Of a DNA stretch of 64,000 nucleotides, positions 14,943 through 54,350 are shown in pieces. Within the stretch, counting starts at the first letter, position 1. Each line of letters begins with the position of its first letter. The notes below the pieces were generated by a model. That model worked only from the letters and a program-made list of their open reading frames with translations, was not told the DNA's origin and did not search any database. A program made the translations under genes and the position numbers. Where the stretch lies: assembly GCA_050245995.1 (NCBI GenBank), contig JBFWWV010000029.1:14652-78651 (forward strand). The letters run 5' to 3'. Source of the stretch: Planctomycetota bacterium. GTDB lineage: Bacteria; Planctomycetota; UBA1135; UBA2386.

Positions 14943-15362
14943 CCCCGGAAGCAACAGGGAGAGCACGGAGAGCACCGGGAGGGGCACGGAGCAGAAAGCA
15001 ACCGACGAGCTGGCCGTCCCGCGGATCGAGAGCACACCGAGAGCACCAGGGATCTGCAGCTGGGCGGAGGTGTTCGCGTCGCGGATGCCCTCTGTCTCTG
15101 TGCTCTCCGTGCTCTCTGTGGTTGCTTGTTCTGGGGTACTCCCAGAGCAGACAACCACAGAGAGCGCAGAGGACACGGAGCAGAAAGCAACCGACGCGCT
15201 GGCCATCACGGGGATCGAGAGCACACGCGGCAGGAGAAGACACGCCTACGTGTCCTCTCGGCCTCTCGGTCCGGCACGGCGGATGGCCGCCTCGCCGAGT
15301 GCTTTCTGCTCTGCGCCCCTCCCGGTGCTCTCGGTGCTCTCCCCGTTCCTCTGGGAGTACCC
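14943..15362. repeat. Palindromic element family B, copy 1
   Basis: ~60-bp terminal inverted arms (GAGAGCACGGAGAGCACCGGGAGGGGCACGGAGCAGAAAGCA and its complement) and a central CTCTGTGGTT..CTGGGGTACTCCCAG..AACCACAGAG palindrome. Confidence 0.9.
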
Positions 15363-15374
15363 ACCGACAGACCC

Positions 15375-15830
15375 TCAGCGCTCGCGCCGCCCCCACGCCA
15401 GCGCCCCCACGTGCGCCGCCACCTGCGTCTCGACCAGCCCGTAGCCGATCGACACGAACAGCAAGGTGACACTCAGACCGTAGCTCGCGGCCAGGAACAG
15501 TGGCCAGGCGATGTAGCCGACGATCCAGAACACCAGACCGGTGAGGCGCGCGGCGCGGAAGCGCATGCGCTTTCGTTGCAGGGCGGCGAACAGCGCCATG
15601 GTCACGAAGCCGAACAGCAGGCGGATGCCGAGGTGCAGCGCGACCTGGCCCCAGTCGGTGCCGCTCGCGGCGACGGCGTCGACGGCGGGCTGCGCCTTGC
15701 CGGTGACCTCGGCGAGCACGGCCGCGAGCTCGTCGCGCAGCGTCTCGTCGAGCACGAAGTGCACGAACGCCATGGCGAGCAGCGCGTGCACCACGCCGGC
15801 GGCCAGCCCTGCCCGCAGGTAGCGCGTCAT
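15375..15830 (-). CDS. Hypothetical membrane protein (about 4 TM)
   Basis: MTRYLRAGLAAGVVHALL..; hydrophobic segments; starts 4 nt after the ALDH stop. Confidence 0.75.
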   Translation of the reverse strand: MTRYLRAGLAAGVVHALLAMAFVHFVLDETLRDELAAVLAEVTGKAQPAVDAVAASGTDWGQVALHLGIRLLFGFVTMALFAALQRKRMRFRAARLTGLVFWIVGYIAWPLFLAASYGLSVTLLFVSIGYGLVETQVAAHVGALAWGRRER

Positions 15831-15834
15831 GGCG

Positions 15835-17376
15835 CTACCCGGCCGACAGCGCGCCGGGGAACCGCAGGTAGGCGCGCAGACCCTGGCGGCCGCCCTCGCG
15901 GCCGAAGCCCGACTCCTGGTAGCCGCCGAACGGTGCCGCGGCATCGAAGCGATTGAACGTGTTGTTCCAGACCACGCCGGCGCGCAGGCGCTCGGCGAGC
16001 CACAGGATGCGCGCGCCCTTGTCGGTCCAGATGCCGGCGCTGAGGCCGTAGCTGGTGTTGTTGGCCTTCTGCACCGCCTCCTCGGGCGTGCGGAACGTCA
16101 TCACCGTGAGCACCGGGCCGAAGATCTCGTCGCGCGCGACGCGGTGGCTCAGCGCCACGCCGGTGAACACCGACGGCCGGAACCAGTGGCCGCGCGCCGG
16201 CAGCGCGCACTCGCTCTGGAACAGCGCGCAGCCCTCGTCGACGCCGCTCCGCACCAGCTCCTGGATGCGCAGGAGCTGGGCCTTGCTGTTGATGGCGCCC
16301 ATGTCGGTGTTCTTGTCCATCGGGTCGCCTGTGCGAATCCGCTGCATGCGGCGCTGCAGCTTGTCGACGAACAGGTCGTGGATGCTCTCGTGCAGCAGCA
16401 GGCGCGAGCCGGCGCAGCAGACGTGGCCCTGGTTGAAGAAGATGCCGCGCACCACGCCCTCGACGGCCTGGTCGATCGCGGCGTCCTCGAACACCACGTG
16501 CGCCGCCTTGCCGCCGAGCTCGAGCGTCAGCTCCTTGCCGGTGCCGGCGAGCGCCTGCTGGATGCGCTTGCCGACCGCGGTGCTGCCGGTGAACGCGACC
16601 TTGGCGAGATCCGGGTGCTCGACCAGCGCCTGCCCCGTCGTGCCATCGCCGGTGACGACGTTGACGACGCCGGGCGGCAGCTCGGCCTGCTGCAGGATCT
16701 CGCACAGCCGCAGCGCCGTCAGCGGCGTGGTCTCGGCCGGCTTGAGCACCACCGTGTTGCCGCACGCGAGCGCCGGCGCCAGCTTCCACGCCGCCATCAG
16801 CAGCGGGAAGTTCCACGGGATCACCTGGCCGATCACGCCGAGCGGCTCGGGCACCGCGCCGGGGAACGCCAGCTCGAGCTTGTCGGCCCAGCCGGCGTGG
16901 TAGAAGAAGTGCTGCGCCGCCAACGGCACGTCGACGTCGCGCGACTCGCGGATCGGCTTGCCGCCGTCCATGGTCTCGAGGCACGCCAGTTCGCGCGCGC
17001 GCTCCTGCACGATCCGGGCGATGCGGTAGAGGTAGCGCGCGCGCTCCTCGCCGGACAGCGCGCGCCACGCCGGCAGCGCCTGCTTCGCCGCCTGCACCGC
17101 GGCGTCGACGTCCTCGGCCGCGCCGTGCGCGACCTCGCCGAGGGTCTCCTCGGTGGCCGGGTTCTCGGTCGGGAAGTAGCGCCCCGAACGCGGCGTCACC
17201 CACGCGCCGCCGACGAACAGTTCGCTGCGCTTGGGCACCGCGAAGTGCTCGGTTCCCTCGGGTGCCGGCGCGTAGGACCAGACCTCGCCGAAGCCGAGCT
17301 CGGGGCGCGCCTTCGCCGGATCCTGCGCCGTGTCCACCTTCCGCTCGCCGCGTCGCCGTGCGTCGTGTTCGACCAT
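15835..17376 (-). CDS. Aldehyde dehydrogenase (catalytic, full length)
   Basis: IPWNFPLLMAAWK, LKPAETTP, FTGST, LELGGK, FFNQGHVCCAGSRL, EIFGPV, PFGGYQESGFGREGG; TATCGT 8 nt before ATG 17376. Confidence 0.95.
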   Translation of the reverse strand: MVEHDARRRGERKVDTAQDPAKARPELGFGEVWSYAPAPEGTEHFAVPKRSELFVGGAWVTPRSGRYFPTENPATEETLGEVAHGAAEDVDAAVQAAKQALPAWRALSGEERARYLYRIARIVQERARELACLETMDGGKPIRESRDVDVPLAAQHFFYHAGWADKLELAFPGAVPEPLGVIGQVIPWNFPLLMAAWKLAPALACGNTVVLKPAETTPLTALRLCEILQQAELPPGVVNVVTGDGTTGQALVEHPDLAKVAFTGSTAVGKRIQQALAGTGKELTLELGGKAAHVVFEDAAIDQAVEGVVRGIFFNQGHVCCAGSRLLLHESIHDLFVDKLQRRMQRIRTGDPMDKNTDMGAINSKAQLLRIQELVRSGVDEGCALFQSECALPARGHWFRPSVFTGVALSHRVARDEIFGPVLTVMTFRTPEEAVQKANNTSYGLSAGIWTDKGARILWLAERLRAGVVWNNTFNRFDAAAPFGGYQESGFGREGGRQGLRAYLRFPGALSAG

Positions 17377-17473
17377 CGCCCGCGACGATAGAGCCGGACT
17401 CGGGTCATTGCACGCACAGGCGGCGGGGACGGTAGAACCGGCCCGGACCTTCGAGTACGAACCGCCCCGTTCC

Positions 17474-18245
17474 ATGCACCCCACCCCCCCTCCGGCCGCT
17501 GCGCGCCGTCGCCGCGGCGTTGCATTCCTCCGCCCGGCAGTCGCATCGGGCCTCGCTCTCGTCCTCGGCGCCTGCGCCGCGCCGGTGCGGCCGCGCGTGC
17601 CGGTCGACGACGACGACCACCAGCACATGGTCAAGGAGTACCCGCTCGGCCGGATCCCGCGCGTCGAGGAGCAGGGCGAGAAGGAGCTCCTGGTCGGCAT
17701 CCGTCACGACGAGGCCGCGACCGAGCTGCTGCTCGAAGGCGAGTACGGCGTCGCCGATCGCGTGCAGCTCGAGGTCGAGGTGCCGATCGTCGAGGTGCAC
17801 GGCGGCGGCCCCGATGGCATTCCCGCCGTCGAGTTCGGCGCCACGGTCGCGCTGCTCGAGGACCCGCGCGAGCTGGCGGCGACGCTCGGAGCGAAGATCA
17901 CCGCGCCGGTCGAGGACAGCCGCACGAAGTACGAGGTGATCGGCATCGTTCGGCCGCCGCTTCGAGAACGTGCAGATCAGCGGCAGCTTCGGCGTCGAGT
18001 GGGACGGCGACGAGACCGAGACCCTGTGGACGGTGTCGGCGGTCACGCCGTGGCGCGACGCGTGGGCCGAGGTCGACCTGTTCCCGACCGTCGAGCTGAT
18101 CGGCGTCGAGAGCGCGACGTGGCTGGCGCCGGGCGTCGTGCTGCCGCTGGCGCCGGGCAGCCAGGCCTCGCTGGCGATCCCGTTCGGCATCGGCGGCGAC
18201 GCCGAGGACATCGGCATCGCGTTCACCAACTTGATCGAGTGGTGA
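17474..18245 (+). pseudogene. Frameshifted lipoprotein with probable outer-membrane beta-barrel (pseudogene or sequencing error)
   Basis: Lipobox LGAC; frame continues ..VIGIV, then removing one base at GTTC 17948-17951 joins GRRFENVQISGSFGVEW..TNLIEW* (ORF 17970-18245). Confidence 0.65.
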
Positions 18246-18260
18246 GCCCGGGTCGGCCGA

Positions 18261-18322
18261 CGCTCGCGCCGGGCGGGCCCCCGCTCGCGCCGGGCGGGCC
18301 CCCGCTCGCGCCGGGCGGGCCC
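18261..18322. repeat. 21-bp tandem repeat x3
   Basis: CGCTCGCGCCGGGCGGGCCCC repeated three times (last copy short) just after the gene stop. Confidence 0.9.
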
Positions 18323-18394
18323 GAATGCCGATAGTCCCCGGGGCAGGCGCCGCGTGCCTGCGCGCCCGCCGTGGCTTCCCCAGACCCCCGCTCC

Positions 18395-18400
18395 TAGAAT
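18395..18400 (+). promoter_or_regulatory. -10 box TAGAAT, leaderless configuration
   Basis: 6 nt before ATG 18407. Confidence 0.6.
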
Positions 18401-18406
18401 CCCCGC

Positions 18407-18910
18407 ATGCGCGCACCGACTTCGCCGACGGGCCTGCTGCCAGCGCCGCTGCAGATCCTGCTGCTGGGCCTGCTGCTGCCGGCCGGCGGCTGCACCTGGT
18501 TCAAGTCCAACCGCGAGGTGCTGATCACCAGCGACCCCGCCGGCGCGCACGTCTTCCTGGACGGCCACGACACCGGCGAGACCACGCCGTACGCGTTCCA
18601 GATCGCCGGCAACTTCGGCAGCGACCATGAGCTCGAGCTGCGCCGCGCCGGCTATCGGCCGGAGCGGCGGCACCTGTACCAGCACACCGAGTTCTACATG
18701 ACGCGGTGGATCGACGGCGCCGGCCCCGAGGAGCTGCCGCCGCTGCCGCTGTCGTGGACCGCGGGCGACTTCGTGTTCCCGTTCGGCGTGCGCGGCGCGA
18801 TCATCCCGGGCGAGGTCTACGTGAAGATGTACCGCGAGGACGAGCCGCTGCTCGGCTTCGACGTGCTGCGCGCTCGCGCCGCGGCGGGCACCGCGCCGGC
18901 CGGACAGTAG
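18407..18910 (+). CDS. PEGA-domain lipoprotein
   Basis: Lipobox AGGC; VLITSDPAGAHVFLDG..GETTP..LELRRAGY. Confidence 0.8.
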   Translation: MRAPTSPTGLLPAPLQILLLGLLLPAGGCTWFKSNREVLITSDPAGAHVFLDGHDTGETTPYAFQIAGNFGSDHELELRRAGYRPERRHLYQHTEFYMTRWIDGAGPEELPPLPLSWTAGDFVFPFGVRGAIIPGEVYVKMYREDEPLLGFDVLRARAAAGTAPAGQ

Positions 18911-18913
18911 CGC

Positions 18914-19474
18914 GTGCGCGCCGTCTTCCTCGACCGCGACGGCACGCTGAACCGGGAGATCGGCTTCTTCGGCGACCCCGACCGCCTCGAGCTGCTGCCG
19001 GGCGTGCGCCCCGCGCTCGAACGGCTGCGCGCCGCCGGCTTCGCGCTGGTCGTGGTGACCAACCAGAGCGGCATCGCCCGCGGCTACTACGGCGAACGCG
19101 ACCTCGCCGCCGTGCACCGCCGCATGCAGGAGCAGCTCGGCCCGGTGCTGCGCGCGTTCCTGCACTGCCCGCACCACCCCGACGAGGACGGGCCCTACGG
19201 CGGTCCGTGCGACTGCCGCAAGCCGGCGCCGGGCCTCCTGCACCGGGCGCGGACGCTGCTCGGCGTCGACTTCGAGGGTTCCTACCTGGTCGGCGACAGC
19301 GCCCGCGACGTGCTGGCGGCGCGCGGCCTGCCGCTCCGCACGGTGCACGTCCGCAGCGGGAAGCCGGTCGAACGCGAGCGCGCCGCGCTGGCCGCGGCGC
19401 AGTTCGCCGTCGACGCCGAGGTCGCGGACCTGCCGGCCGCGGTCGACTGGATCCTGGCGGACGCCGCGCGCTGA
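18914..19474 (+). CDS. gmhB: D-glycero-D-manno-heptose 1,7-bisphosphate phosphatase (HAD IIIA)
   Basis: FLDRDGTLN, VVTNQSGIARG, CPHHP..CDCRKPAPG, VGDSARD. Confidence 0.92.
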   Translation: MRAVFLDRDGTLNREIGFFGDPDRLELLPGVRPALERLRAAGFALVVVTNQSGIARGYYGERDLAAVHRRMQEQLGPVLRAFLHCPHHPDEDGPYGGPCDCRKPAPGLLHRARTLLGVDFEGSYLVGDSARDVLAARGLPLRTVHVRSGKPVERERAALAAAQFAVDAEVADLPAAVDWILADAAR

Positions 19475-19522
19475 CGCCGCGCGGATCCGGGCCGACGGCT
19501 TGCGCCGCGCCGCGCCGCGCGT

Positions 19523-22338: not shown

Positions 22339-22465
22339 TCCGCGTCGCGACCGCGCGCGCGGCGCGAGGATGCGGCCGCAGGGAAGTGCGGCCCCGTTGC
22401 GACGCGAGCCGCGAAAGCCGGACAGGGGCTCGACCCCGCGCCGCGACGTGGCAGACTCGCGGCCG

Positions 22466-24859: not shown

Positions 24860-25458
24860 GCGGCGGCGCGGCGCGGGTGCTGTTGGCGCTGCTCGCCGCC
24901 TGCTCGGCAGCGCCGGCGCCGGCGCCGTGGCGCCCGGTCACCGCGTGGCGCCCGGTGGTGTTCGGCGGCGACGGCGAGGTGCGTGCCGACGGCGAGGCGC
25001 TGGTGCTGGAGCCCGGCAATCCGCTGACCGGGGTGGTCTTCGACGCCGCGCTGCCGACCGCCGACTACGAGGTCGAGCTGCTGGCGACGCGCGCCGGCGG
25101 CGTCGACTTCTTCTGCGCGCTGACGGTGCCGACCGCGCGCGGCAACCTGAGCCTGGTGCTCGGCGGCTGGGGCGGCGCGGTGTGCGGCCTGTCGAGCCTC
25201 GACGGCCGCGACGCCGCGCGCAACGAGACGCGCACGCTGCGCCACTTCGAACCGGACCGCCCCTACCGCGTGCGCCTGCGGGTCCTGCGCGACCGCGTCC
25301 AGGCCTTCGTCGACGACGCGCCGCTGCTCGGCGCCGACCTCACCGGCCGCGAGGTGGGCGTCCGCGTCGAGCTCGACCTGTGCCAGCCGTTCGGCTACGC
25401 GACCTACCAGACGGCGGCGATCGTGCGCGACGTGCGCTGGCGCCCGCTCGGGCCGTGA
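24856..25458 (+). CDS. Lipoprotein, DUF1080/3-keto-disaccharide hydrolase-like
   Basis: Lipobox LAAC; GNPLTGV, DYEVELLATRAGGVDFFCALTVP, LVLGGWGGAVCGLSSLDG. Confidence 0.75.
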   Translation: MSGGAARVLLALLAACSAAPAPAPWRPVTAWRPVVFGGDGEVRADGEALVLEPGNPLTGVVFDAALPTADYEVELLATRAGGVDFFCALTVPTARGNLSLVLGGWGGAVCGLSSLDGRDAARNETRTLRHFEPDRPYRVRLRVLRDRVQAFVDDAPLLGADLTGREVGVRVELDLCQPFGYATYQTAAIVRDVRWRPLGP

Positions 25459-25480
25459 GCGCCGCGCCGCGGCCCGTGGC

Positions 25481-25708: not shown

Positions 25709-25721
25709 GCGCTCATCCGGC

Positions 25722-34559: not shown

Positions 34560-34745
34560 ATGTCCAGGTTCCCCGAGGTCCAGCGCGTCGAGCGCGCGAT
34601 CCGCACGAAGGAGGCGCACCAGCTGCGCTGGGCGCTCGACTACCTCGAGTCGCGCCTGAAGCTCGACCATGGCCCTGAGCTGCAGCAGCAGTGGACGGCG
34701 CTGCTGGAGCGGGTGCGGCAGGCGATGGCGGCCGGGCCGCGCTGA
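34560..34745 (+). CDS. Small helical hypothetical protein (61 aa)
   Basis: TAGCAT 8 nt before ATG; coding-like codons. Confidence 0.6.
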   Translation: MSRFPEVQRVERAIRTKEAHQLRWALDYLESRLKLDHGPELQQQWTALLERVRQAMAAGPR

Positions 34746-34764
34746 GGCGCCGGAGCCACGCTGC

Positions 34765-34860
34765 TCACGCGCCGTGGCGACGATCGAGCGGCTCGTTCTC
34801 CAGCTCGGCGAAACGCACCGGGTCGGTGTCGCGCAGACCGGCGACGACGTGAGTTGCGAA
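34765..34860 (-). pseudogene. Possible 3' gene remnant cut by family B element
   Basis: Frame ..THVVAGLRDTDPVRFAELENEPLDRRHGA* with coding-like GC3; 5' side runs into repeat B2. Confidence 0.3.
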
Positions 34861-35335
34861 CGGGGAGAGCGGAGCATCGGCAGGGGCACGGAGCAGAACG
34901 CCCTCGACTCAGTTGGCCCTCACGCGGCACGCACGCAACCGCGAACCAGAGAAGAAACCACAGAGAGCACAGAGGACACAGAGCAGAAAGACGACGCGCA
35001 GCCAAGGCATCCGCCAAGGCGAGCGAAGAGCCTGCCAACGGCCTCTGTCTCGTTCAGTGCGATGGCTCCAACTGGGCGGCAAACGCTCGCGTTGGCGGTG
35101 GCTTTCTGCTCTGTACTCTCTGTGCCCTCTGTGGTTTATTCTGGGGTACTCCCGGAGAAGAACAGGGAGAGCACGGAGAGCATCGGGAGACGCACAGAGC
35201 AGAAAGCACTCGACTCTGGGGGCCGAGACGCGGCACGCAAGCAACCGCGAGCAAGAGAAGGAACCACCGAGGGCACAGAGGACGCAGAGCAGAGAGCAGC
35301 CGCGACGCGAGGGCATCCGACAAAGGCGAAGGGCG
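34861..35335. repeat. Palindromic element family B, copy 2
   Basis: Two direct long units plus an inverted arm around TTCTGGGGTACTCCC (35139-35153). Confidence 0.9.
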
Positions 35336-35473
35336 CGTGATTCATGCCGCCGGGCCGTTGTCGGTGTGGGTCTCTTCCGCTCGATATGGATCCGCTGGCC
35401 TTGTCGAATCATGCGTCGATCCTGAATCGGACCAGCCCCGGACGCCGAGGGGTGCGGCTAGCATCTGCACGCC

Positions 35474-36661
35474 ATGGGAGCGCTCGAGGTGATGAGGGCC
35501 GCCGCCATCGACGAACCGTGGCGGGCGATGGAGCCCGTTCGGCTGGGGACCGTTCCCACGCGCATGCCCGAGCCCCATGCCTACCTGCTGGTGACCGAGG
35601 ACGGCGAGCCACGGCTGCGCGTTGATTCCTACGACTCTGTGTCGGATCGCTCCTGCGCCGACGGCACCTGGCATCGCTGGCTGCTCGCCGTCGGCTGGTA
35701 CGCCGTCCATCTGGTGGACGTGGACTCGCGCGCCAGCGTGCGCGTGGATCTGCCGTTCTACCCGGCGGCCTTCCTCGCGACGCCCGAACGGCTGCTCGTC
35801 GGTCACGGCGAAGGAGTGGTCGCCGTCGCTCCCGACGGCCGCGTGGCGTGGCGCTCGCCACCCCTGGCGTACGACGGAGTCCGGGAGCTCCGGCTCGACG
35901 GTCCGTGCATCCGCGGCTCGGCGAGGGGCGGACCCGACGCCCCGTGGCGGCCCTTCGCGATCGAGCTGGCGACAGGGCAGCGGGTCGGGTCTCCTTTGCC
36001 TTCGCCGATGGACGACGACTCCGCGATCCTGCCGCAGCGCCCCTGGCTGCTCCCGGCGCTGACCGCGGTCTGCGCCGGGCTGCTGCTGTGGTCGTTCCTC
36101 GGCGCGGCCGACAAGGGCGTCTGGGCGTTCGAGCTGCTGCCGCTGACGGCGGTGATGCTGGTGTTCCTGGTGCGCAGCCGGTGGTTCCGCTTCAGCGATC
36201 TCAGCTACGCGCTGCTGACGTGGTTCTTCCTGATCCAGTCGCTCGGCGGGCGCTACACGTTCGCCGAAGTGCCGTTCCCGCAGGCGCTCACCGAACTGCT
36301 GGGCCTCGAACGGAACCCGGTCGATCGGATCGGGCACTTCTTCCAGGGCTTCGTGCCGGCGGTGCTGCTGCGCGAGTGGCTGCTGCGCCGCCGTGCGATC
36401 CCCGCCGGCTGGACGCTGTTCTGGCTGGTCACCGGCTGCTGCCTCGCCTTCAGCGCGATGTACGAGCTGCTGGAGATGTGGACCGTCGTGCTGTTCTACC
36501 CCGACGCCGGCCCCGAATGGCTCGGCATGCAGGGCGACCCGTGGGACGCGCAGTGGGACATGACGATGGCGCTGTGCGGCGCGATCACCGCGCAGCTGCT
36601 CCTGCGCCCGCTGCACGACCGCAGCATCACGCGCGCCACCGGCCGCCCGCTCCGCGGCTGA
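35474..36661 (+). CDS. Hypothetical beta-rich domain fused in frame to a DUF2238 (YjdF-like) membrane protein (own ATG at 36008)
   Basis: C-half has GGRYTFAEVP, RNPVDRIGHFFQG, SAMYELLE, QGDPWDAQWDM; N-half is soluble with LAYDGV..GPDAPWRPF. Confidence 0.75.
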   Translation: MGALEVMRAAAIDEPWRAMEPVRLGTVPTRMPEPHAYLLVTEDGEPRLRVDSYDSVSDRSCADGTWHRWLLAVGWYAVHLVDVDSRASVRVDLPFYPAAFLATPERLLVGHGEGVVAVAPDGRVAWRSPPLAYDGVRELRLDGPCIRGSARGGPDAPWRPFAIELATGQRVGSPLPSPMDDDSAILPQRPWLLPALTAVCAGLLLWSFLGAADKGVWAFELLPLTAVMLVFLVRSRWFRFSDLSYALLTWFFLIQSLGGRYTFAEVPFPQALTELLGLERNPVDRIGHFFQGFVPAVLLREWLLRRRAIPAGWTLFWLVTGCCLAFSAMYELLEMWTVVLFYPDAGPEWLGMQGDPWDAQWDMTMALCGAITAQLLLRPLHDRSITRATGRPLRG

Positions 36662-36719
36662 CGGGCCGGAGCGCCGGAGCGTCGTTCGCTCTGGTGACGG
36701 GGAGGGCTCGGGCACGGCC

Positions 36720-36975
36720 GAGGACGCTCGACTCAGGTGACCGCAACGCGGCATGCACGCATCCGCGAACCAGAAGGAAAACCACAGAGAGCACAGAGCA
36801 CACAGAGCAGAAAGAAGCCGCGCAGCCAAGGCATCCGCCAAGGCGAGCGACCAGCCTGCCAGCACCTCGATCTCGTTCGGTGCGTTGGCTCCAGCTGGGC
36901 GGCAGCGCTCGCGTTGGCGTTTGCCTTCTGCTCTGTGCTCTCTGTGCCCTCTGTGGTTTTTCTTCTGGGGTAACC
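36720..36975. repeat. Palindromic element family B, copy 3
   Basis: ~250-bp imperfect direct repeat of 34900-35150. Confidence 0.9.
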
Positions 36976-36991
36976 CGACGCACCCGCGCGC

Positions 36992-38964: not shown

Positions 38965-39345
38965 CCCCGTGCCCGTGCCGCGCCCGCCCCCGCCCCCGCC
39001 CCCGCCCCGTTCCCGTTCCCGTGCCCGTGCCCGCGCCCGTGCCCAGCGGCGCGAAGCGCCGCGGTGCCCAGGCCGCGCGCAGCGCGGCCGGTGCCCGCGC
39101 GCGCGCAGCGCGCGCTGGTGCGAAGGGCGCAATCGCCAAGCGCAATCGCGGGTCGCAATCGCGCCGCACGATCGCGCCGCACGATCGCGCCGCACGATCG
39201 CGCCGCACGATCGCGCAAGGCGCTCCAGCCCGCGCTCCGCGCGGGCGGGCACCGGCGTGCGTGCTCCGCACGCACGCCTGGGCACGGGCACGGGCACGGG
39301 CACCGGCGCGCTGCGCGCGCCTGGGCACGGGGCGCGCTGGCGCGC
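38965..39345. repeat. Palindromic element family A, copy 2, with internal 13-bp tandem repeat x4
   Basis: Same GTGCCC/hairpin and GGGCAC/hairpin arms as copy 1; GCGCCGCACGATC x4 at 39161-39212. Confidence 0.88.
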
Positions 39346-45518: not shown

Positions 45519-45960
45519 CAGACATGCTGCGGCGCAGGCAGGCGCGCGGAGCGCGCCTGCGCGCCGCGCGCGCGGACGCGGTCCGCGCGCCGGAGGCGAC
45601 CGACGACACGGGTGCGGGGGCGCAACACCCGCGACGAGCGCATCCGCGCAGAAGGGGAACGCATCTGCTCCGGGGCCGCCGCGGCCGGTCCGGCTGGCAC
45701 GCGCCGCGCCGCGTTCGGCATCCGCGAGGCGAAGCAACGGACGCGTCACGGCGCGTGCGGGCCGGCCCGGGCCGCTGCTGCGGCCACGACGTTCGGGCTG
45801 GGTCGCGCTTTGCGCCCCGCGAAGACGGGGGGCGCAAAGCTGAATACCAAGAGCGGGGACGCGACGGGAACACAACCGCCCAGCTCGCGGCTTCGGCTCG
45901 CTCGCTGACGCTCGCTCGCGCGCCGCGGCATCCGATCGGCCTTTGGCGGCGTCGCTGCGG
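45519..45960. repeat. Family C element, copy 1
   Basis: Begins CAGACATGCTGCGGCGCAGG right after the TAG; homologous along ~430 bp to both arms at 48548-49410. Confidence 0.85.
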
Positions 45961-46326
45961 CGCGGAGTGGCGCCGTGGTGTCCTGTCGGCTCGAGGCGGC
46001 CGCAGGGGCGGCTGTGGAGGTGCCAGCGTCGCTCGATCGTGGAGCAGAGCCGGTCGAGGTGGCAGCCATCGCCGAAGTTGCGGAGATCGGGCTCGGCTGT
46101 GCGGTGCACGCCAGCACGACGAGGTCCTGGTGGATCGCCGGCGCATGCCGATCCAGCTCCGAGACCTCCGCCCACGGCTCGCAGGCGGACAGCACCAGGA
46201 TCGGCTGGAAGGACACCCGCAGGGAGCGACGCATGTCCCGCGTTCGCAACCGCCGTTCCAGGGGCACAAGGGCCGCCTTGCGGACCGGTTTGGATATGGT
46301 GCCGCCACCTGACCCAGGAGGAAGTC

Positions 46327-48525: not shown

Positions 48526-48547
48526 CCCGTACCGGCGATCGCCGCGG

Positions 48548-49410
48548 TCCTGCTGCGACGCAAGTTCGGGCGCTACGCGCCCTCGCGCGCCGCGCGCGCG
48601 CACGCGGTGCGCGCGGCAGAGGCGACTCACGTCAAGGGCAGGGACGCAACACCCGCGACGGACGCATCCGCGCAGAAAGGAAGCCATCCGCGCGGGGACC
48701 GCAACGGCCGGTCCGGCTGGCACGCGCCGCGCCGCGAAAGCGCATCCGCCAAGTTGACCAACGGGCGCGTCACGGCGAGTGCGGGCCGGCCCTTGGCCGT
48801 TGCTGCCAGCCGACGCTCCAAGCGTCCCCGCGGCTTTCGGCCCGCCAAAGGCGGGGGCCGAAAGGCAACAGCTACCAGAAGGAGACCAACCGACCAGGAA
48901 GACCACCGACGTTCTCGCGGCTTCGGCTCGCTACGCTCGCGCGCCGCAGCATCCGCAGAGAACCTCGGCGCCTCGTTCTCCGAGGTTCCCCGCGGATGGC
49001 GCGGCGCGCGAGGGCGCGCAGCGCCCGAGCCGAAGCCGCAAGAGCGTCGGCTGCGTTCCTCTGCGTGTCGGCCTCTGGGTTCCATGTGCCTTTCGGCCCC
49101 CGCCGTTGGCGGGCCGAAAGGCTCGACCCCGCGCGAGCGTCGGGGCCGGAGCAACGGCCTGGGGCCGGCCCGCACTCGCCGTGACGCGCCGGGGATGCTT
49201 GAACTCGCGGATGGCCGGTCGCGGCGCGGCGCGTGCCAGCCGGACCGGCCGTTGCGGTCCCTGGCGGATGGCTTCCTGTCTTCTCGGTTGCGTTGGTCGC
49301 GGGTGCTGCGTCCCTGCCCTTGACGTGATTCGCCTCTGGCGCGCGCACCGCGTGCGCGCGCGCTGCGCGCGCGGGCGCGCAGCGCCCTCGCTTGCGCCGC
49401 AGCATGTCTG
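48548..49410. repeat. Family C head-to-head doublet (about 860-bp imperfect inverted repeat)
   Basis: e.g. 48601 CACGCGGTGCGCGCGGCAGAGGCGACTCACGTCAAGGGCAGGGACGC pairs with its near complement at ~49310-49363; centre ~48960-48990. Confidence 0.92.
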
Positions 49411-49416
49411 TATGGT
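49411..49416 (+). promoter_or_regulatory. -10 box TATGGT for the serA operon, leaderless configuration
   Basis: 6 nt before ATG 49423; abuts the family C terminal repeat. Confidence 0.5.
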
Positions 49417-49422
49417 CCTCCA

Positions 49423-51015
49423 ATGACCTACCGCATCCTCGTCGCCGACGACCTCGCCGAAGACGGCCTCGCATTGCTGCGCGCCGCCGGCGAGGTCACC
49501 GTGCAGAAGGGCATGAACGAAGACGCCCTGCGCGAAAAGCTGCCGGGCTACCACGCGCTGGTCGTGCGCTCCGCGACCCAGGTGACGGCGCGGTCGCTCG
49601 AGCTGGCCGACGAGCTGGCGCTGATCGGACGCGCGGGCATCGGCGTCGACAACATCGACGTGCCGGCGGCGACGGCGCGCGGCATCGTGGTGATGAACAC
49701 GCCCGAGGCCGGCGCGATCACGACGGGCGAGCACGCGCTGTCGCTGCTGCTGTCGCTGGCGCGCAACATCGCGGCGGCCGACGCGTCGGTGCGCGCGGGC
49801 AAGTGGGAGAAGAGCAAGTTCACCGGCGTGGAGCTGACCGGCAAACAGCTCGGCGTGCTGGGCCTGGGCCGCATCGGCCGGGTGGTCGCCGAGCGCGCGC
49901 GCGGGCTGGGCATGCTGATCGCGGCCTACGACCCGTTCGTGACGCCGGCGAACGCGCCGCCTGGCGTGCGCATGCTCGACCTCGGCGAGCTGCTGGCGAC
50001 GTCGGACTTCGTCACGGTGCACGTGCCGCTGGCCGACGACACGCGCGGGCTGCTCGGCAAGGAGCAGCTCGCGGCGATGAAGCGCGGCGCGCGGCTGGTG
50101 TGCGCGGCGCGCGGCGGCATCGTCGACGAGCCGGCGCTGTGCGCGGCGCTGGCGTCGGGCCACCTGGCGGGCGCGGCGCTCGACGTGTTCGCGCAGGAGC
50201 CGCTGCCGATGGACAGCCCCCTGCGGCAGGCGCCGAACCTCGTGCTGACGCCGCACCTCGGCGCCAGCACGCACGAGGCCAAGCACAACGTCTCGGTCGA
50301 GATGGCGAAGCAGGTGGCGCTCTGCCTGCAGAAGGGCGTCGCGCTGAACGGCGTCAACGTGCCGCGCATCGCGCCGAGCGACGCGCAGCAGGTGGGCCCC
50401 TACCTCGCGCTGGTGCAGAACCTGGCGACGTTCCTGGTGCAGGCGTTCCCGGGCCAGCTGAAGTCGCTGCGGCTGACGGCCCAGGGCGGCATCCCGGAGT
50501 CGTCGCTGGCGGCGCTGCGGGCCGGCATGGTGGTCGGCGCGCTGAAGCCGAGCACCACCGGCGCGGTGACGCCGGTCAACGCCGAGCGCATCGCCAAGGA
50601 CCGCAACGTGCGCGTGTTCGCCGAGGCCAGCTCGCTGAAGCGCGACTTCATGAACCTGGTGCGCGTCGAGGCGCTGCTCGGCGACGACCGCCACTTCGCC
50701 ACGGGCACGGTGCTCGGTCACCGACACGGCCGGCTGGTCGAGCTCGACGACTACGTGCTCGACGCGATCCCCGAGGCGCCGATGCTGGTGACGTTCCACG
50801 CCGACCAGCCCGGCGTGGTCGGCAAGCTCGGCACGCTGCTCGGCGACGCCGGCATCAACATCTCGCGCATGCAGATCGGCAAGCCGGTCGACGCCGGCGC
50901 GATGGCGCAGACGCCGTCGGTCGCGATCCTCAACCTCGACCAGCCGCCGCCCGACCCGCTGCTGACCGCGATCCGCGCCCTGCCGGCGATGCAACGCGCC
51001 GCGCTGGTGCGGTGA
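49423..51015 (+). CDS. serA: D-3-phosphoglycerate dehydrogenase (with C-terminal ACT domain)
   Basis: LVVRSAT, GRAGIGVDNIDV, GVLGLGRIG, TPHLGASTHEA, DQPGVVGKLG..INISRMQIG. Confidence 0.96.
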   Translation: MTYRILVADDLAEDGLALLRAAGEVTVQKGMNEDALREKLPGYHALVVRSATQVTARSLELADELALIGRAGIGVDNIDVPAATARGIVVMNTPEAGAITTGEHALSLLLSLARNIAAADASVRAGKWEKSKFTGVELTGKQLGVLGLGRIGRVVAERARGLGMLIAAYDPFVTPANAPPGVRMLDLGELLATSDFVTVHVPLADDTRGLLGKEQLAAMKRGARLVCAARGGIVDEPALCAALASGHLAGAALDVFAQEPLPMDSPLRQAPNLVLTPHLGASTHEAKHNVSVEMAKQVALCLQKGVALNGVNVPRIAPSDAQQVGPYLALVQNLATFLVQAFPGQLKSLRLTAQGGIPESSLAALRAGMVVGALKPSTTGAVTPVNAERIAKDRNVRVFAEASSLKRDFMNLVRVEALLGDDRHFATGTVLGHRHGRLVELDDYVLDAIPEAPMLVTFHADQPGVVGKLGTLLGDAGINISRMQIGKPVDAGAMAQTPSVAILNLDQPPPDPLLTAIRALPAMQRAALVR

Positions 51016-51767
51016 CCCCGCCGTCCTCCACTCCGCGCGGCGCCGCGCCGCCGTTCGCCGCGGTCTACTTCGACTGCGACTCGACGCTGGCGACGGTCGA
51101 GGGCATCGACGAGCTGGTCTCGGGTCTCGCGCCGGCGCAGCAGCGCGAGGTGCTCGCGCTCACCCAGCAGGCCATGGACGGCACCCTGCCGCTGGCCGAC
51201 GTCTACCGGTCCCGGCTCGCGACGATCGCGCCGAGCCGCGACGCCCTGGTCGCAGTCGGCGCCCGCTACGTGGCGGCGATGGTGCCCGACGCCGACGGGG
51301 TCGTGCAGGCCCTGCAGCACCTCGGCAAGCGCGTCGGCATCGTCAGCGGCGGTCTGCTCGCGCCCGTGCAGGCGCTGGCGCACCACCTCGGCGTCCATCC
51401 GTCGCACGTGCACGCGGTGCCGCTGCAGTTCGCCGCCGACGGCAGCTACCTGGACTTCGACCGCAGCTGCCCCCTGTGGCAGAACGGCGGCAAGGTCACC
51501 GTCCTGAAGGCGCTGCCGCCCGACCACCGGCCGCTTGCGTTCGTCGGCGACGGCATCACCGACCTCGAGACCCAGGGCACCGCGGCCGACCTGTTCGTCG
51601 GCTTCGGCGGCGTCGCCGCGCGCGAGAAGGTCCGCACCGCGGCCCAGGCCTGGTTCGACACCCCCACCCTGGCGCCGCTGCTGCGCATCGTCCTGAGCCC
51701 CCCCGAACTGGCGCGGCTCGGCGCCCAGCCGCGGTTCGCGCCGTTGCTTTCGCGCGCCGGCCTGTGA
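51012..51767 (+). CDS. serB: HAD phosphoserine phosphatase
   Basis: FDCDSTLATVEGIDEL, TQQAMDG, IVSGG, VGDGITD, FVGFGG; coupled to serA. Confidence 0.85.
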   Translation: MTPPSSTPRGAAPPFAAVYFDCDSTLATVEGIDELVSGLAPAQQREVLALTQQAMDGTLPLADVYRSRLATIAPSRDALVAVGARYVAAMVPDADGVVQALQHLGKRVGIVSGGLLAPVQALAHHLGVHPSHVHAVPLQFAADGSYLDFDRSCPLWQNGGKVTVLKALPPDHRPLAFVGDGITDLETQGTAADLFVGFGGVAAREKVRTAAQAWFDTPTLAPLLRIVLSPPELARLGAQPRFAPLLSRAGL

Positions 51768-52849
51768 TGCTCAGGGGCATGGGCGATCACCCCGTGCTGT
51801 TCATCCCGGGTCCGACCGAAGTCGACGACGAGCTGCGCCGCATCATGGCGATGCCGCTGTGCGGGCACCGCTCGCAGGGCTTCACAGCCGCCGTGCACGA
51901 CGTCTGCCAACGGCTCAAGCCGCTGTTCCACACGCTGGCGCACACGGCGTTCGAGACCTGCCCGGCGACGGCGCTGATGGAGGCCGGGATCCGCAACCTG
52001 GTGCCGCCCGGCGGCCGCACGCTGCACCTCGTGGCCGGCGCGTTCGGCGAGCGCTGGAGCAAGATCAGCGGCTGGTGCGGGCGCCAGCCCGAGCTGCTCG
52101 CGGCGCCCTGGGGCAGCGCGCACGACCCGGCGCTGCTGGCGACGCGGCTGCGCAGCGGCCCGCCCGTCAGCGCGGTGATGATCACGCACAACGAGACCTC
52201 GACCGGCGTCCTGCAGCCGCTGCGCCAGCTGGCCGCCGCCGTGCGCGAGACCGCGCCCGACGCGCTGGTGCTGGTCGACGCCGTCACCTCGCTCGGCGGC
52301 GCCGAGCTGCAGTTCGACGACTGGGGCATCGACCTCGCGTTCGCCGGCACGCAGAAGTGCCTGGCGCTGCCGCCGGGCCTGTGCGTCTACGCGCTCAGCC
52401 ACCGCGCGATGGAGCGCGCGCGATCGGTCCCGGACCGCGGCTACCTGTTCGACTTCGTGCGGGCGGTGCCCGACACGCTGGCCGGCAAGACGCTGGCGAC
52501 GCCGTGCGTGCCGCTGGTGTTCGCCTTGCAGCGCCAGCTGCAGCGCATCGAGCAGGAGACGCTCGAGGCGCGCTGGCTGCGCCACCGCGCGATGCAGCAG
52601 GTCTGCGCCGACTGGGCCCGCGAGCACGCGATCGAGCCGTTCGTCGCCCAGGAGGCGGCGCGTTCGCCGACGGTCAGCTGCTTCCAGGCCAGCGGCCGCG
52701 ACGTGAAGCAGATGGCCGAACGCGCCAGCGACGCCGGCTACAAGATCGATCAGGGCTACGGCGACCTGAAGGGCAAGACGTTCCGCATCGGCCACATGGG
52801 CGACCACACGGTCGACCGCGTGCAGGCCTGCCTGCGGACGATGCTCTGA
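51767..52849 (+). CDS. Class V PLP aminotransferase (alanine-glyoxylate/serine-pyruvate type), probable SerC substitute
   Basis: LFIPGPTEV, GHRS, HNETSTGV, LVDAVTS, GTQKCLALPPG, TPCV, FRIGHMG. Confidence 0.88.
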   Translation: MLRGMGDHPVLFIPGPTEVDDELRRIMAMPLCGHRSQGFTAAVHDVCQRLKPLFHTLAHTAFETCPATALMEAGIRNLVPPGGRTLHLVAGAFGERWSKISGWCGRQPELLAAPWGSAHDPALLATRLRSGPPVSAVMITHNETSTGVLQPLRQLAAAVRETAPDALVLVDAVTSLGGAELQFDDWGIDLAFAGTQKCLALPPGLCVYALSHRAMERARSVPDRGYLFDFVRAVPDTLAGKTLATPCVPLVFALQRQLQRIEQETLEARWLRHRAMQQVCADWAREHAIEPFVAQEAARSPTVSCFQASGRDVKQMAERASDAGYKIDQGYGDLKGKTFRIGHMGDHTVDRVQACLRTML

Positions 52850-53011
52850 GGCCCAGAGCCGGCCACAAGGGCAACGGATCGCATCGATACAGCCGCGCGA
52901 ACGCGCGACGGCGCGGTGCCACGGCCGCGTCCCCAACCGCGGGCAAATCGCGCGCAGCCGGCACTCCATGCGCCCCGTCGAGCTGCCGATGCCGACGGCG
53001 GAGGACGGCGC

Positions 53012-53836
53012 ATGGGCCTTCGCATCAACAGCAACATCCCTTCCCTGACCGCGCAGCGGAACCTGGCGAAGATCACCGACATCCTCGCCGGCCACTACCG
53101 GCGGCTGTCGACCGGTCTGCGCATCAGCACCGCAGCCGACGACCCGGCCGGGCTGGCGATGTCGGAGCGGCTGCGCGCGCAGATCCGCTCGCTCGACCAG
53201 GCGAGCCGCAACGCCCAGGACGGCGTGTCGTTGGTGCGCACCGCCGAGGGCGCGCTCGACGAGGTCAGCTCGATGATGGGCCGCCTGCGCGAGCTCGCGG
53301 TGCAGTCGTCGAACGGCACCCTGTCGCAGGCCGACCGCGACACGCTGCAGCAGGAGTTCGGCGAGCTGGTGCAGGAGATCGACCGCATCGCGCAGGGCAC
53401 CGAGTTCAACGGCATCGCGCTGCTCGACGGCACCGGCGGCCAGATCACGTTCCAGGTCGGCGGCGGCACGTCCGCGGCCGACGGCATCGCCGTGCAGCTC
53501 GGCTCGGCGCGCACCAGCGACCTCGGCCTCGCGACCCTCGACATCAGCTCGACCGGCGGCGCCAGCACCGCGATCTCCGCCATCGACCAGGCCACCGACA
53601 GCGTGTCGACGCTGCGCGGCCGCTACGGCGCCACGCAGAACCGGCTCGACTCGGCGACGCGCTACCTCGGCGTGCAGCGCGAGAACCTGTCCGCCGCCGA
53701 GAGCCGGATCCGCGACGTCGACGTCGCCTACGAGACGGCGCAGCTGGCCAAGGCGCAGATCCTGCAGCAGGCGACGATCGCGATCCTGACGCAGGCCAAC
53801 GCACAGCCGCAGCTGGCCCTGCGCCTGCTGGCCTGA
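53012..53836 (+). CDS. fliC: Flagellin (minimal, 274 aa)
   Basis: LRINSN, RLSTGLRISTAADDPAGLA, NAQDGVSLVRTAEGAL, TEFNG, RGRYGATQNRL, AESRIRDVDVA, AQANAQP-like end; GGAGG RBS. Confidence 0.95.
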   Translation: MGLRINSNIPSLTAQRNLAKITDILAGHYRRLSTGLRISTAADDPAGLAMSERLRAQIRSLDQASRNAQDGVSLVRTAEGALDEVSSMMGRLRELAVQSSNGTLSQADRDTLQQEFGELVQEIDRIAQGTEFNGIALLDGTGGQITFQVGGGTSAADGIAVQLGSARTSDLGLATLDISSTGGASTAISAIDQATDSVSTLRGRYGATQNRLDSATRYLGVQRENLSAAESRIRDVDVAYETAQLAKAQILQQATIAILTQANAQPQLALRLLA

Positions 53837-53856
53837 GCCGGGCACCGGGGACACAG

Positions 53857-54350
53857 CGCTCCCTGCTCCGCGCGACTCCCGGTGCTTTGGGTGCCCGTCC
53901 GGCCTTCTCGGGGCACTCCAGAGGAACAGGGAGAGCACGGAGAGCATCAGGAGAGGCACAGAGCAGAAAGCAACCGACCACGCCAGCACTGCCGCCCAGC
54001 CAGAGCAATCGCACGGAACGCGAAGCATGCGCGCACCGCTCGGTCCTCGACGCCTTGGTGGATGCCTCAGCTGGGCGGCTGCTTTCTGCTCTGCGTCCTC
54101 GGTGCCCTCTGTGGTTCCTTCTCTGGTGCGCGGATGCGCTCGTGCCGCGTGACGGCCCCCAGAGTCGAGCGCTTTCTGCTCCGTGCACCTCCCGGTGCTC
54201 TTCGTGCTCTCCCTGTTCTGCGTCCGGGAGTACCCCAGAAGAAAAACCACAGAGGACACGGAGAGCACGGAGCAGAAAACAACCGACTACGCGAGACCCG
54301 CCGCCCAGCCAAGGCAGAGGCACCGAAGGAGATCGCGCGTTCCTGCCGTC
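53857..54350. repeat. Palindromic element family B, copy 4
   Basis: 54040-54230 is the reverse complement of the 35145-35335 unit; core GGGAGTACCCCAGAA at ~54226-54240. Confidence 0.9.

What the first reader, a model, noticed from the sequence alone, without database searches (positions are those of the whole stretch)
14943..54350. Family B: modular purine-rich palindromic elements at four loci
Seen at 14943-15362, 34861-35335, 36720-36975 and 53857-54350. Two arm types recur: AACAGGGAGAGCACGGAGAGCA..GGGAG..GCAC(A/G)GAGCAGAAAGCA and AACCACAGAGAGCACAGAGGACACAGAGCAGAAAG. They occur in direct and inverted combinations around TTCTGGGGTACTCCC, with conserved linkers (CTCGACTC, CACGCGGCACGCA, GCCAAGGCATCCG, CAGCTGGGCGG). 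Three of four copies lie between convergent genes. They generate spurious ORFs reading TTESTEDTEQK / HREHRGHR / LCVLCALCG. From recall, not verified: similar ACCACAGAG..ACAGAG inverted repeats flank GxxExxY-family genes in several phyla. Inference: non-autonomous derivatives of a mobile unit whose enzyme lies elsewhere.
Basis: partly seen in the sequence, partly recalled or inferred. Interest (0 to 1): 0.65.

Follow-up and report, generated by a model that had tools for sequence, protein, structure and literature searches.

The report
Gene-less GxxExxY hairpin repeat arrays
The four purine-rich palindromic blocks are old copies of a 307-base repeat unit present at 34 places in this genome; its arms are the same heptamer-repeat arms that frame a small nuclease gene (GxxExxY) in many phyla, so they look like gene-less offspring of a widespread selfish DNA cassette that I could not find described.

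Summary
The core 13-mer occurs 15 times in the window against 0.4 expected.

Genome-wide, the blocks belong to one 307-nt unit: tip stem-loop, arm A, linker, then a roughly 95-bp rod made of arm B+, a palindromic loop and arm B-. The unit forms arrays of 1-4 copies at 34 intergenic loci (18.6 kb). Most copies are 90-98% identical to the consensus. The window's copies are older, at 79-83%.

Arm B (ACC + 3 x CACAGAG every 9 nt) is the terminal inverted repeat that brackets GxxExxY (PDDEXK_3) genes in at least 50 of 79 loci from many phyla.

The genome has one intact GxxExxY gene, on another contig, with a family hairpin directly 3' of it, and no RAYT. Among 41 relatives, only the two genomes with a GxxExxY gene carry such arms (108 and 51 copies). 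Across 301 genomes of the phylum the odds ratio is 28.

Movement itself and the nuclease's role are inferred, not shown. No empty sites or read data could be obtained. There is no compensatory covariation, which argues against a structured RNA.

The parts
14935..15363 (.). Locus 1. A large palindrome made of two short elements head to head: A+ (14953-14999), loop, B- (15090-15123), tip (15129-15146), B+ (15153-15188), loop, A- (15301-15347), reversed tip (15348-15363).
   Evidence: (I9)
15090..15188 (.). Inside-out hairpin B- / tip TTCTGGGGTACTCCCAGA / B+. This is the same simple form that follows the GxxExxY gene and occurs alone at about 7 other loci.
34858..35337 (+). Locus 2, about 1.7 units: degenerate A+ (34860-34900), linker, B+ (34956-34990), loop, B- (35102-35137), tip (35139-35158), A+ (35161-35207), linker, degenerate B+ (35262-35297), partial loop.
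   Evidence: (unit 19-305 and 1-223)
34956..35137 (+). Long rod hairpin B+ / palindromic loop / B-. The consensus folds at about -132 kcal/mol for 205 nt.
36690..36976 (+). Locus 3, one unit with a decayed arm A: degenerate tip and A+ (36690-36726), linker, B+ (36780-36814), loop, B- (36924-36959), tip (36963-36976).
   Evidence: I21; unit 44-307
53857..54350 (-). Locus 4, one terminal-type unit on the minus strand with part-arms on both sides: degenerate A- (53857-53904), tip (53905-53923), A+ (53925-53971), loop, B- (54081-54116), reversed linker, A- (54171-54217), reversed tip (54218-54241), B+ (54245-54280), partial loop.
   Evidence: I18; unit 1-303 minus
34901..34955 (+). Linker between arm A and arm B (CTCGACTC...CACGCGGCACGCA...CCAGAGAAG). 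It is specific to this genome's family. Other copies lie at 35208-35261, 36727-36779 and (reversed) 54117-54170.
   Evidence: (no match in metagenome contigs)

Best explanation
The four blocks are diverged members of one lineage-specific family of interspersed repeats with no ORF of their own.

**The unit.** It is 307 nt long and contains three heptamer-array arms. Arm A has four CRSRGAG-type words. Arms B+ and B- each have ACC plus three CACAGAG words at a 9-nt period. The parts in order are a small tip stem-loop (TCTGGG-loop-CCCAGA), arm A, a linker, and a rod of about 95 bp formed by B+, a palindromic loop and B-.

**Origin.** The arms are the same kind of terminal inverted repeat that brackets the 125-aa PD-(D/E)XK protein GxxExxY in compact cassettes of about 425-570 bp across many phyla. 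I read the units as gene-less relatives of such a cassette.

**Proposed mechanism (inferred).** The genome's single intact GxxExxY nuclease binds the phased heptamers, or the hairpin or cruciform they form. It cuts there and lets units be copied to new intergenic sites at gene ends. The tips of existing hairpins are preferred targets, which would build the arrays. This would work like REPINs and their RAYT, but with a different enzyme fold.

**Shown:** the anatomy, the copy number, the homology of the arms, the physical link to the gene, the co-occurrence of gene and arms, the dispersal pattern, and the absence of an RNA-type covariation signal.

**Inferred:** any nuclease activity on the arms, trans-mobilisation, and the way arrays grow.
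For: 1. **One family.** nhmmer finds 128 hits at 34 loci totalling 18.6 kb, in arrays of 1-4 units with a 307-nt period. Six arrays sit at contig ends, so the counts are lower bounds.
2. **Recent spread.** Of 51 copies of at least 200 nt, 40 are 90-98% identical to the consensus. For 30 of 35 full units the nearest relative lies in another locus.
3. **Arm identity.** In at least 50 of 79 GxxExxY loci from many phyla, including archaea, the ORF is bracketed by inverted repeats far above shuffles. Nearly all are of the type (T)(T)(A/C)ACC-CRCNRAG x3. The median cassette is 466 bp.
4. **Physical link.** The only PDDEXK_3 / TIGR04256 gene of the genome has D70, E80 and K82 intact. It is followed by a stretch collinear with unit 242-307, then the tip, then B+ (score 98). 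Its 5' leader weakly matches unit 210-243 (0 of 300 shuffles, but 9 of 400 random genomic windows).
5. **Co-occurrence in relatives.** Among 41 relatives, only G000 and G010 have the gene, and only they have dispersed tri-heptad arms: 108 and 51, against 0 in 36 others and 1-4 in three. Each genome's arms match those beside its own gene.
6. **Co-occurrence in the phylum.** Among 301 genomes, at least 10 arms occur in 107 of 154 gene-positive and 11 of 147 gene-negative genomes. The odds ratio is 28, p = 9e-31, and Spearman rho is 0.64.
7. **No other enzyme.** No RAYT is present. No arm pair encloses a transposase-sized ORF.
8. **Position.** Loci lie at gene ends: about 15 convergent, about 13 tandem, 0 divergent.
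Against: - No insertion polymorphism or clean empty site was seen. The other assemblies are 99.99-100% identical.
- The one compact orthologous junction, epimerase | DUF2238 in G007, differs from G000 by more than the repeat alone.
- The gene has a clear family arm only on its 3' side.
- There is no target-site duplication and no defined target.
- Co-occurrence cannot tell who depends on whom.
- 11 gene-negative genomes have at least 10 arms, and 47 gene-positive genomes have fewer than 10.
- The genomes in these counts are related to one another, so the p-values overstate independence.
- The protein has no solved relative. My model is poor (pLDDT 59.6) and its fold matches are not significant. 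No activity is known for the family; it is listed as 'Unknown' in PMC3424549.
Confidence: 0.6

Rival explanations
1. The hairpins are the primary elements, either neutral or host-maintained REP-like palindromes spread by some other route. On this view the GxxExxY gene is a parasite that homes into them, like a homing-endonuclease gene landing in a hairpin loop. The window's arrays would then owe nothing to the nuclease.
For: - The co-occurrence is symmetrical and fits this equally well.
- 11 gene-negative genomes still carry 10-232 arms.
- In G000 and G010 the gene sits beside, not inside, a complete inside-out hairpin.
- About 10 of the 80 loci are 'inside-out'.
Against: - Within this family of 25 genera, arms are absent wherever the gene is absent.
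- The two genomes have different gene subtypes (64% identity), each with its own arm subtype. This is easier to explain if gene and arms arrive together.
- No other mobilising enzyme was found.
Confidence: 0.2
2. There is no dedicated enzyme. A founder palindrome was amplified by replication slippage and unequal crossing-over into arrays, and was scattered by ectopic recombination and gene conversion.
For: - The arrays are head-to-tail with an exact 307-nt period.
- Units within an array are slightly more alike than units in different arrays (94.7% against 92.9%, permutation p < 0.0005).
- Modules are shuffled, for example units truncated at 248 and joined to position 13, and A- swapped for B-.
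Against: - 34 dispersed loci on 21 contigs are hard to seed by recombination alone.
- 30 of 35 units have their closest relative at another locus.
- Terminal units ending in A- cluster together across loci.
- This view does not explain the tie to the GxxExxY gene.
Confidence: 0.1
3. The elements act at the RNA level. Long stems in 3' untranslated regions would serve as RNase III processing sites, terminators, mRNA stabilisers or small-RNA genes, and would be kept for that function.
For: - All loci lie at gene 3' ends and none between divergent genes.
- The B rod is very stable (-132 kcal/mol) and is followed by a T-rich run (GGTTTTTCTT).
- The related ORF-bearing intervening sequences of 23S rRNA are excised through such stems (general knowledge; cited in PMC10053308).
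Against: - There is no compensatory covariation: 10 double changes that keep a pair, against 9.4 +/- 2.1 in shuffles, and single changes mostly break pairs.
- In tandem-gene contexts the unit points either way relative to the genes.
- There is no Rfam match.
- The simple terminator scan finds nothing at the arms.
- The family is absent from all 40 related genera.
Confidence: 0.07
4. The elements are classical MITEs, that is, internal-deletion derivatives of a DDE-transposase insertion sequence with the same terminal repeats.
For: They have terminal inverted repeats, small size, no ORF and many dispersed copies.
Against: - No target-site duplication is seen at array ends or at cassette ends in 36 loci, where lengths of 0-2 nt equal the shuffled control.
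- No arm pair in the genome encloses a transposase-sized ORF. All clusters are at most 1.2 kb, and the only pair less than 2 kb apart brackets DUF2238, which is a native gene.
- The unit is not found on plasmids.
Confidence: 0.03

Closest known systems
REP / REPIN populations with their RAYT (REP-associated tyrosine transposase), and BIMEs of enterobacteria and Pseudomonas
   Same: Many gene-less palindromic units lie at gene ends. They are modular, with two arm types in direct and inverted combinations and conserved linkers. One enzyme gene per genome carries the same arms next to it. Each genome has its own arm subtype matching its own gene. The arm-to-gene ratio here is about 115:1.
   Different: The candidate enzyme is a 125-aa PD-(D/E)XK protein, not a Y1 HUH transposase, and PF01797 is absent. 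The arms are arrays of 3-4 phased heptamers of 35-47 nt, not a single 20-40-nt palindrome. The unit is 307 nt and forms tandem arrays. No activity has been demonstrated.
GxxExxY (TIGR04256 / PF13366 PDDEXK_3) cassettes with CACAGAG-type inverted arms. These are seen repeatedly in this scan, but I found no paper describing them.
   Same: Arm B has the same ACC + 3 x CRCNRAG design. The elements sit right at gene ends. The family hairpin directly follows this genome's own GxxExxY gene.
   Different: The window's elements carry no gene. The arms are extended inward by about 55 nt of palindromic loop to give a 95-bp rod. A second arm type (A) and a 54-nt linker are added. The units are concatenated into arrays.
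MITEs and other non-autonomous IS derivatives (for example Correia elements and NIMEs of Neisseria, or Nezha of cyanobacteria)
   Same: They are small, have terminal inverted repeats and no ORF, are dispersed, are limited to a lineage, and occur in young and old copies.
   Different: There is no target-site duplication, no parent IS and no DDE transposase. The arms are built from tandem heptamers.
ORF-bearing intervening sequences of 23S rRNA (four-helix-bundle S23p / 23S_rRNA_IVP protein between inverted repeats)
   Same: Both are a tiny cassette with one small ORF framed by inverted repeats that can form a long stem.
   Different: The window's elements are not in rRNA. In this genome the single IVP gene is flanked by a different GC-rich repeat family.

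Membership tests
GxxExxY-cassette-derived gene-less hairpins (informal class) | Arms made of at least 3 tandem CRCNRAG heptamers at an 8-9-nt period, with an outer end ACC | tested here: met
   Arm B is AACC-ACAGAG-AG-CACAGAG-GA-CACAGAG. The pattern gives 108 matches in G000 and 0 with the reversed control.
GxxExxY-cassette-derived gene-less hairpins (informal class) | The same arm type brackets GxxExxY ORFs in other genomes | tested here: met
   At least 50 of 79 loci from many phyla score above all shuffles. 36 strong cases have a median length of 466 bp.
GxxExxY-cassette-derived gene-less hairpins (informal class) | A GxxExxY gene in the same genome carries arms of the same family | tested here: met
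   The gene at C25:34438-34817 is followed by unit 242-307, the tip and B+. The 5' side gives only a weak match.
GxxExxY-cassette-derived gene-less hairpins (informal class) | Arms are present only where the gene is present | tested here: met
   Relatives: 2 of 2 gene-positive against 0 of 39 gene-negative genomes with dispersed arms. Phylum: odds ratio 28, with exceptions in both directions.
REP/REPIN-RAYT | A RAYT (Y1 HUH transposase, PF01797) gene flanked by the repeats | tested here: not met
   No PF01797 match in the genome, which is 93% complete.
REP/REPIN-RAYT | Short imperfect palindromes occurring as inverted doublets at gene ends | tested here: inconclusive
   Inverted arm pairs at gene ends are present. 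However, the arms are 35-47-nt heptamer arrays within a 307-nt unit.
MITE (derivative of a DDE insertion sequence) | Target-site duplication flanking the terminal repeats | tested here: not met
   No consistent duplication at array ends. Cassette ends show 0-2 nt, the same as the control.
MITE (derivative of a DDE insertion sequence) | A parent IS with the same termini and a transposase | tested here: not met
   All arm clusters are at most 1.2 kb. The only enclosed gene is the native DUF2238.
CRISPR array | Short identical repeats separated by unique spacers | tested here: not met
   The whole 307-nt period is conserved (mean 93% identity) and there is no variable spacer.
Curated RNA family (Rfam 15) | Match at the gathering score | tested here: not met
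   0 matches in the 64-kb window.
Conserved structured RNA (any) | Compensatory base changes that keep the stem | tested here: not met
   10 double changes that keep a pair, against 9.4 +/- 2.1 in shuffles. Slid registers give similar counts.
23S rRNA intervening sequence element | Located inside an rRNA helix and carrying an IVP ORF | tested here: not met
   The loci lie between protein-coding genes. The IVP gene is elsewhere, with other repeats.
Integron gene cassettes (ORF + attC) | IntI integrase and attI next to an array of ORF-attC units | not tested
   I ran no search for IntI. The arrays contain no ORFs between units.

The most novel reading that the evidence does not exclude
GxxExxY proteins and heptamer-array hairpins together form an unrecognised class of minimal mobile element. 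The only protein is a 125-aa PD-(D/E)XK nuclease that reads phased CRCNRAG words, or the cruciform they extrude, and propagates both its own cassette of about 0.45 kb and large gene-less populations. In function this is a counterpart of REPIN-RAYT that evolved from a different enzyme fold.

In this genome a single gene copy would maintain more than 100 arms. Arrays would grow by insertion of units into the tip stem-loop of existing hairpins. That would make this genome an unusually clean natural system for testing the idea.
Probability: 0.35. Interest if true: 0.85.

Novelty: new variant of a known kind. Interest (0 to 1): 0.6.

Why it matters
GxxExxY (PF13366 / TIGR04256) is a very large and strongly conserved family. 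Homologues are about 70% identical across phyla, and 7,971 of 8,000 scored candidates had E <= 1e-10. It has no known function and is listed as 'Unknown' in the 2012 survey of the superfamily (PMC3424549).

Tying the family to a defined DNA partner gives it a testable substrate. If the link is causal, it adds a second, mechanistically distinct enzyme-plus-repeat system to the one known example, RAYT with REPINs. It would also explain a common source of spurious 'TEDTEQK / HRGHR / LCVLC' ORFs and of assembly breaks in metagenome-assembled genomes.

This genome is useful for three reasons. It has one gene copy, more than 100 arms, and a young burst of 90-98% identical units. Its relatives lack both gene and arms.

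For annotation, the ORFs that run through these blocks should not be called genes. Examples are 34669-35340 (+) and 14902-15396 (-).

Tried and rejected
- **Other assemblies.** The GxxExxY and DUF2238 proteins in Logan runs SRR27751815/16 and in GCA_050247215.1 come from the same strain (99.99-100% identity), so they are uninformative.
- **Metagenome contigs.** Two pattern scans, one for the linker and one for tip plus arm A, gave 0 hits.
- **Empty-site search.** In G007 the epimerase and DUF2238 genes are adjacent. G000 has about 1.47 kb between them, but only 480 nt of that is the repeat, so this is not a clean comparison. The subtilase next to locus 4 has no flagellin neighbour in any relative.
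- **Structure of GxxExxY.** The sequence search of solved structures found nothing. The AlphaFold model from 13 sequences is poor (pLDDT 59.6). Foldseek's best E-value is 0.12. The top hits are PD-(D/E)XK nucleases, but they are not significant.
- **Literature.** Searches for GxxExxY, the family accessions and the arm sequences found no description of the cassette. Subscription journals are not covered.
- **Mobile-element collections.** The unit is absent from plasmids. The protein is absent from 50,697 phage records and present in only 7 of 72,556 plasmid records.
- **Terminator scan.** It found nothing at the arms.
- **Rejected readings.** CRISPR-like array (no spacers), RAYT system (no RAYT), DDE-type MITE (no duplication, no parent IS), and cargo cassette for DUF2238 (the gene is native beside the epimerase in G007).

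Full report
**1. The observation**

The four loci read as described. The parts list was re-read base by base.

- The shared inner word ACAGAGCAGAAAG, with up to 2 mismatches, occurs 15 times in the window. The expectation is 0.40, and none of 100 shuffles reaches 15.
- The repeat finder recovers the direct and inverted relations without prior knowledge.
- The flanking genes are ordinary: GNAT acetyltransferase, epimerase, DUF2238, flagellin and subtilase.
- Three of the four loci lie between convergent genes.
- Two of the three quoted spurious peptides are exact. The third is present in near-identical form.

**2. One unit, genome-wide**

The window is contig C29:14652-78651 of a 6.37-Mb draft of 45 contigs with 73% G+C. 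Earlier notes of this scan place the genome in Planctomycetota; I did not verify that.

A profile built from one array finds 128 hits. These merge into 34 loci covering 18.6 kb, and six of them lie at contig ends. The repeat unit is 307 nt long:

| Unit positions | Part |
|---|---|
| 1-19 | tip (TCTGGG-GTACT-CCC...) |
| 20-65 | arm A |
| 66-119 | linker |
| 120-156 | arm B+ |
| 157-268 | loop |
| 269-305 | arm B- |

- Arrays hold 1-4 units.
- B+, loop and B- fold as one rod of about 95 bp. The free energy is about -132 kcal/mol for 205 nt.
- A terminal unit type ends in A- instead of B-.
- About seven loci hold only the simple inside-out hairpin B-/tip/B+.
- Thirty-five full units are on average 93% identical to one another.
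- Of the 51 copies of at least 200 nt, 40 are 90-98% identical to the consensus. The window's copies are 79.5-83%, so they are among the oldest.
- In the window, locus 2 holds 1.7 units and locus 3 holds one unit with a decayed arm A. Locus 4 holds one terminal-type unit on the minus strand. Locus 1 holds two short elements head to head.

**3. What the arms are**

The genome has exactly one PDDEXK_3 / TIGR04256 (GxxExxY) gene, at C25:34438-34817. It has no RAYT.

- The gene is followed by a stretch collinear with unit 242-307, then the tip, then B+.
- Its leader weakly matches unit 210-243. No shuffle of 300 reaches that score, but 9 of 400 random genomic windows do.
- The protein has thousands of homologues at about 70% identity across phyla. 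The residues D70, E80 and K82 are invariant in the alignment.

I fetched 80 homologous loci from many bacterial phyla and two archaeal lineages.

- In at least 50 of 79, the ORF is bracketed by an inverted repeat that scores above every shuffle.
- Nearly all are of the form (T)(T)(A/C)ACC-CRCNRAG-N1-2-CRCNRAG-N1-2-CRCNRAG upstream, with its complement downstream.
- About ten are inside-out.
- In 36 strong cases the cassette measures 424-568 bp (median 466) and has no target-site duplication beyond chance.
- Several are wedged between operon genes directly after the stop codon: carA|carB in L036 and L037, and trpE|trpG in L039.

Arm B of the window is this repeat.

**4. Gene and arms travel together**

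- The 307-nt unit is absent from 40 related genomes. These include 24 other genera of the same family.
- Only G000 and G010 of these 41 genomes carry a GxxExxY gene.
- A tri-heptad pattern gives 108 matches in G000 and 51 in G010. It gives none in 36 other genomes and 1-4 in three. The reversed control gives none anywhere.
- G010's arms (CACAGAGAACACAGAGACCACAGAG) are those beside its own gene. Its hairpins share the design of G000's simple form, including the TCTGGG/CCCAGA tip stem with a variable loop.
- The two proteins are only 64% identical. This suggests separate arrivals of gene plus arms.

Across 301 genomes of the phylum:

| Measure | Gene-positive | Gene-negative |
|---|---|---|
| Genomes | 154 | 147 |
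| With at least 10 arms, net of control | 107 | 11 |
| Median number of arms | 25.5 | 1 |

The odds ratio is 28 (p = 9e-31) and Spearman rho is 0.64. The genomes are related to one another, so these p-values overstate independence. G000 has about 115 arms for its one gene.

**5. Behaviour of the copies**

- Thirty of 35 units have their nearest relative at another locus. Units within one array are only slightly more alike than units in different arrays (94.7% against 92.9%). This favours dispersal over purely local duplication.
- Loci lie at gene ends: about 15 convergent, about 13 tandem and no divergent contexts, using a crude ORF caller.
- The unit's orientation relative to tandem genes is mixed.
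- Compensatory changes in the rod do not exceed chance: 10 against 9.4 +/- 2.1. Single changes mostly break pairs.
- Rfam finds nothing.

This pattern fits neutrally decaying selfish DNA better than a conserved RNA.

**6. Mechanism**

What is shown is descent from, or kinship with, GxxExxY-cassette arms. Also shown are a physical link to the only GxxExxY gene and strong co-occurrence of gene and arms.

I infer the following. The nuclease recognises the phased heptamers, or the hairpin or cruciform they form, and promotes copying of gene-less units. Tips of existing hairpins are favoured targets. In arrays each B- arm is separated from the next A+ arm by one shared tip element, and many arrays begin with a half-rod plus B-, which would fit that.

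The lack of duplications argues against a DDE-type mechanism.

I could not test movement:
- the other assemblies are the same strain;
- two metagenome scans found nothing;
- the only compact orthologous junction (epimerase|DUF2238 in G007) differs by more than the repeat.

**7. Comparison and novelty**

In function the closest system is REPIN/RAYT together with BIME-type mosaics. Membership fails because no RAYT is present and the arm design differs. Membership of MITE, CRISPR, rRNA intervening sequence and Rfam classes also fails on tested features.

I found no paper describing GxxExxY cassettes or these arms. PMC3424549 lists PDDEXK_3 as of unknown function.

Earlier notes of this scan report the same gene-plus-arms unit in at least 79 other genomes. 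They agree with my independent tests but are not independent evidence.

Three things are particular to this genome: the composite 307-nt unit with a second arm type and a linker, its tandem arrays, and a very clean contrast of one gene and many arms against relatives that have neither.

**8. Verdict**

I class the finding as a new variant of a known kind, with interest 0.6.

Noticed in passing
window 13612-13854 and 39016-39281; genome contig C8:~52690-53400 (L002 1372-2100, minus strand): The genome's single four-helix-bundle / 23S_rRNA_IVP (PF05635, Avd-like) gene is preceded by about 280 nt of a different GC-rich palindromic repeat family (CCCGTGCCCGTGCCCAGG...GCGCGAAGCGCGC...GGCACGGGCAC). 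This family also occurs twice in the window (repeat finder D6, I5, I12, I16). Each of the two small 'selfish' genes therefore seems tied to its own repeat family.
   Followed up: partly
window 35338-36000 (within ORF 35474-36658): The 395-aa DUF2238 ORF is only about 210-240 aa long in 14 relatives, aligning to residues 181-395. The N-terminal 175 codons are unique to this genome. They lie directly after array locus 2 and have a weaker but coding-like GC3 (0.85 against 0.97). This could be a new N-terminal extension, a separate small gene, or non-coding DNA.
   Followed up: partly
window 14909-14940; also genome C9:71920-71970, C26:101500-101556, C22:25373-25430; G010 loci L121-L126: Short hexamer or dodecamer tandem repeats abut many elements: (GGGCTGGGCTCT)n here, and (GGCAAA)n, (GGGCTA)n and (GAGCCC)n elsewhere. 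In G010 the hairpin arms run outward into long (CTTCTG)n / (CAGAAG)n tails. Microsatellite-like tails may be part of the element design or a by-product of it.
   Followed up: no
window 48551-48749 vs 49207-49404, and 45519-45719: Another unrelated inverted-repeat family: 146-nt arms that are 88% complementary and 562 nt apart (I2, I13), with a third copy at 45519 (D17, I7, I24).
   Followed up: no
L036, L037, L039, L047, L086 (GxxExxY cassettes in other phyla): The purine-rich arm often starts directly at, or overlaps, the stop codon of the upstream gene (..TGA|ACCACAGAG, ..TAA|CCACAGAG). The cassette is co-oriented inside operons (carA|carB, trpE|trpG). This may reflect a target preference for TRA-ACC or selection for non-disruptive sites.
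   Followed up: partly
L068 = G010:C21 (record CAYMRG010000021.1): The public record of this relative is titled 'uncultured candidatus Brocadiaceae bacterium'. The genome collection, however, places it in the same family as the window's genome, so the record's label may be wrong.
   Followed up: no
window 3588-5548: Nine or more copies of a 41-nt GTCGCCGTCGCCGTCGA-type direct repeat, spaced 141-468 nt apart, lie inside a long minus-strand ORF (3215-5770). They look like coding repeats of an Asp/Gly-rich repeat protein, not an element.
   Followed up: no
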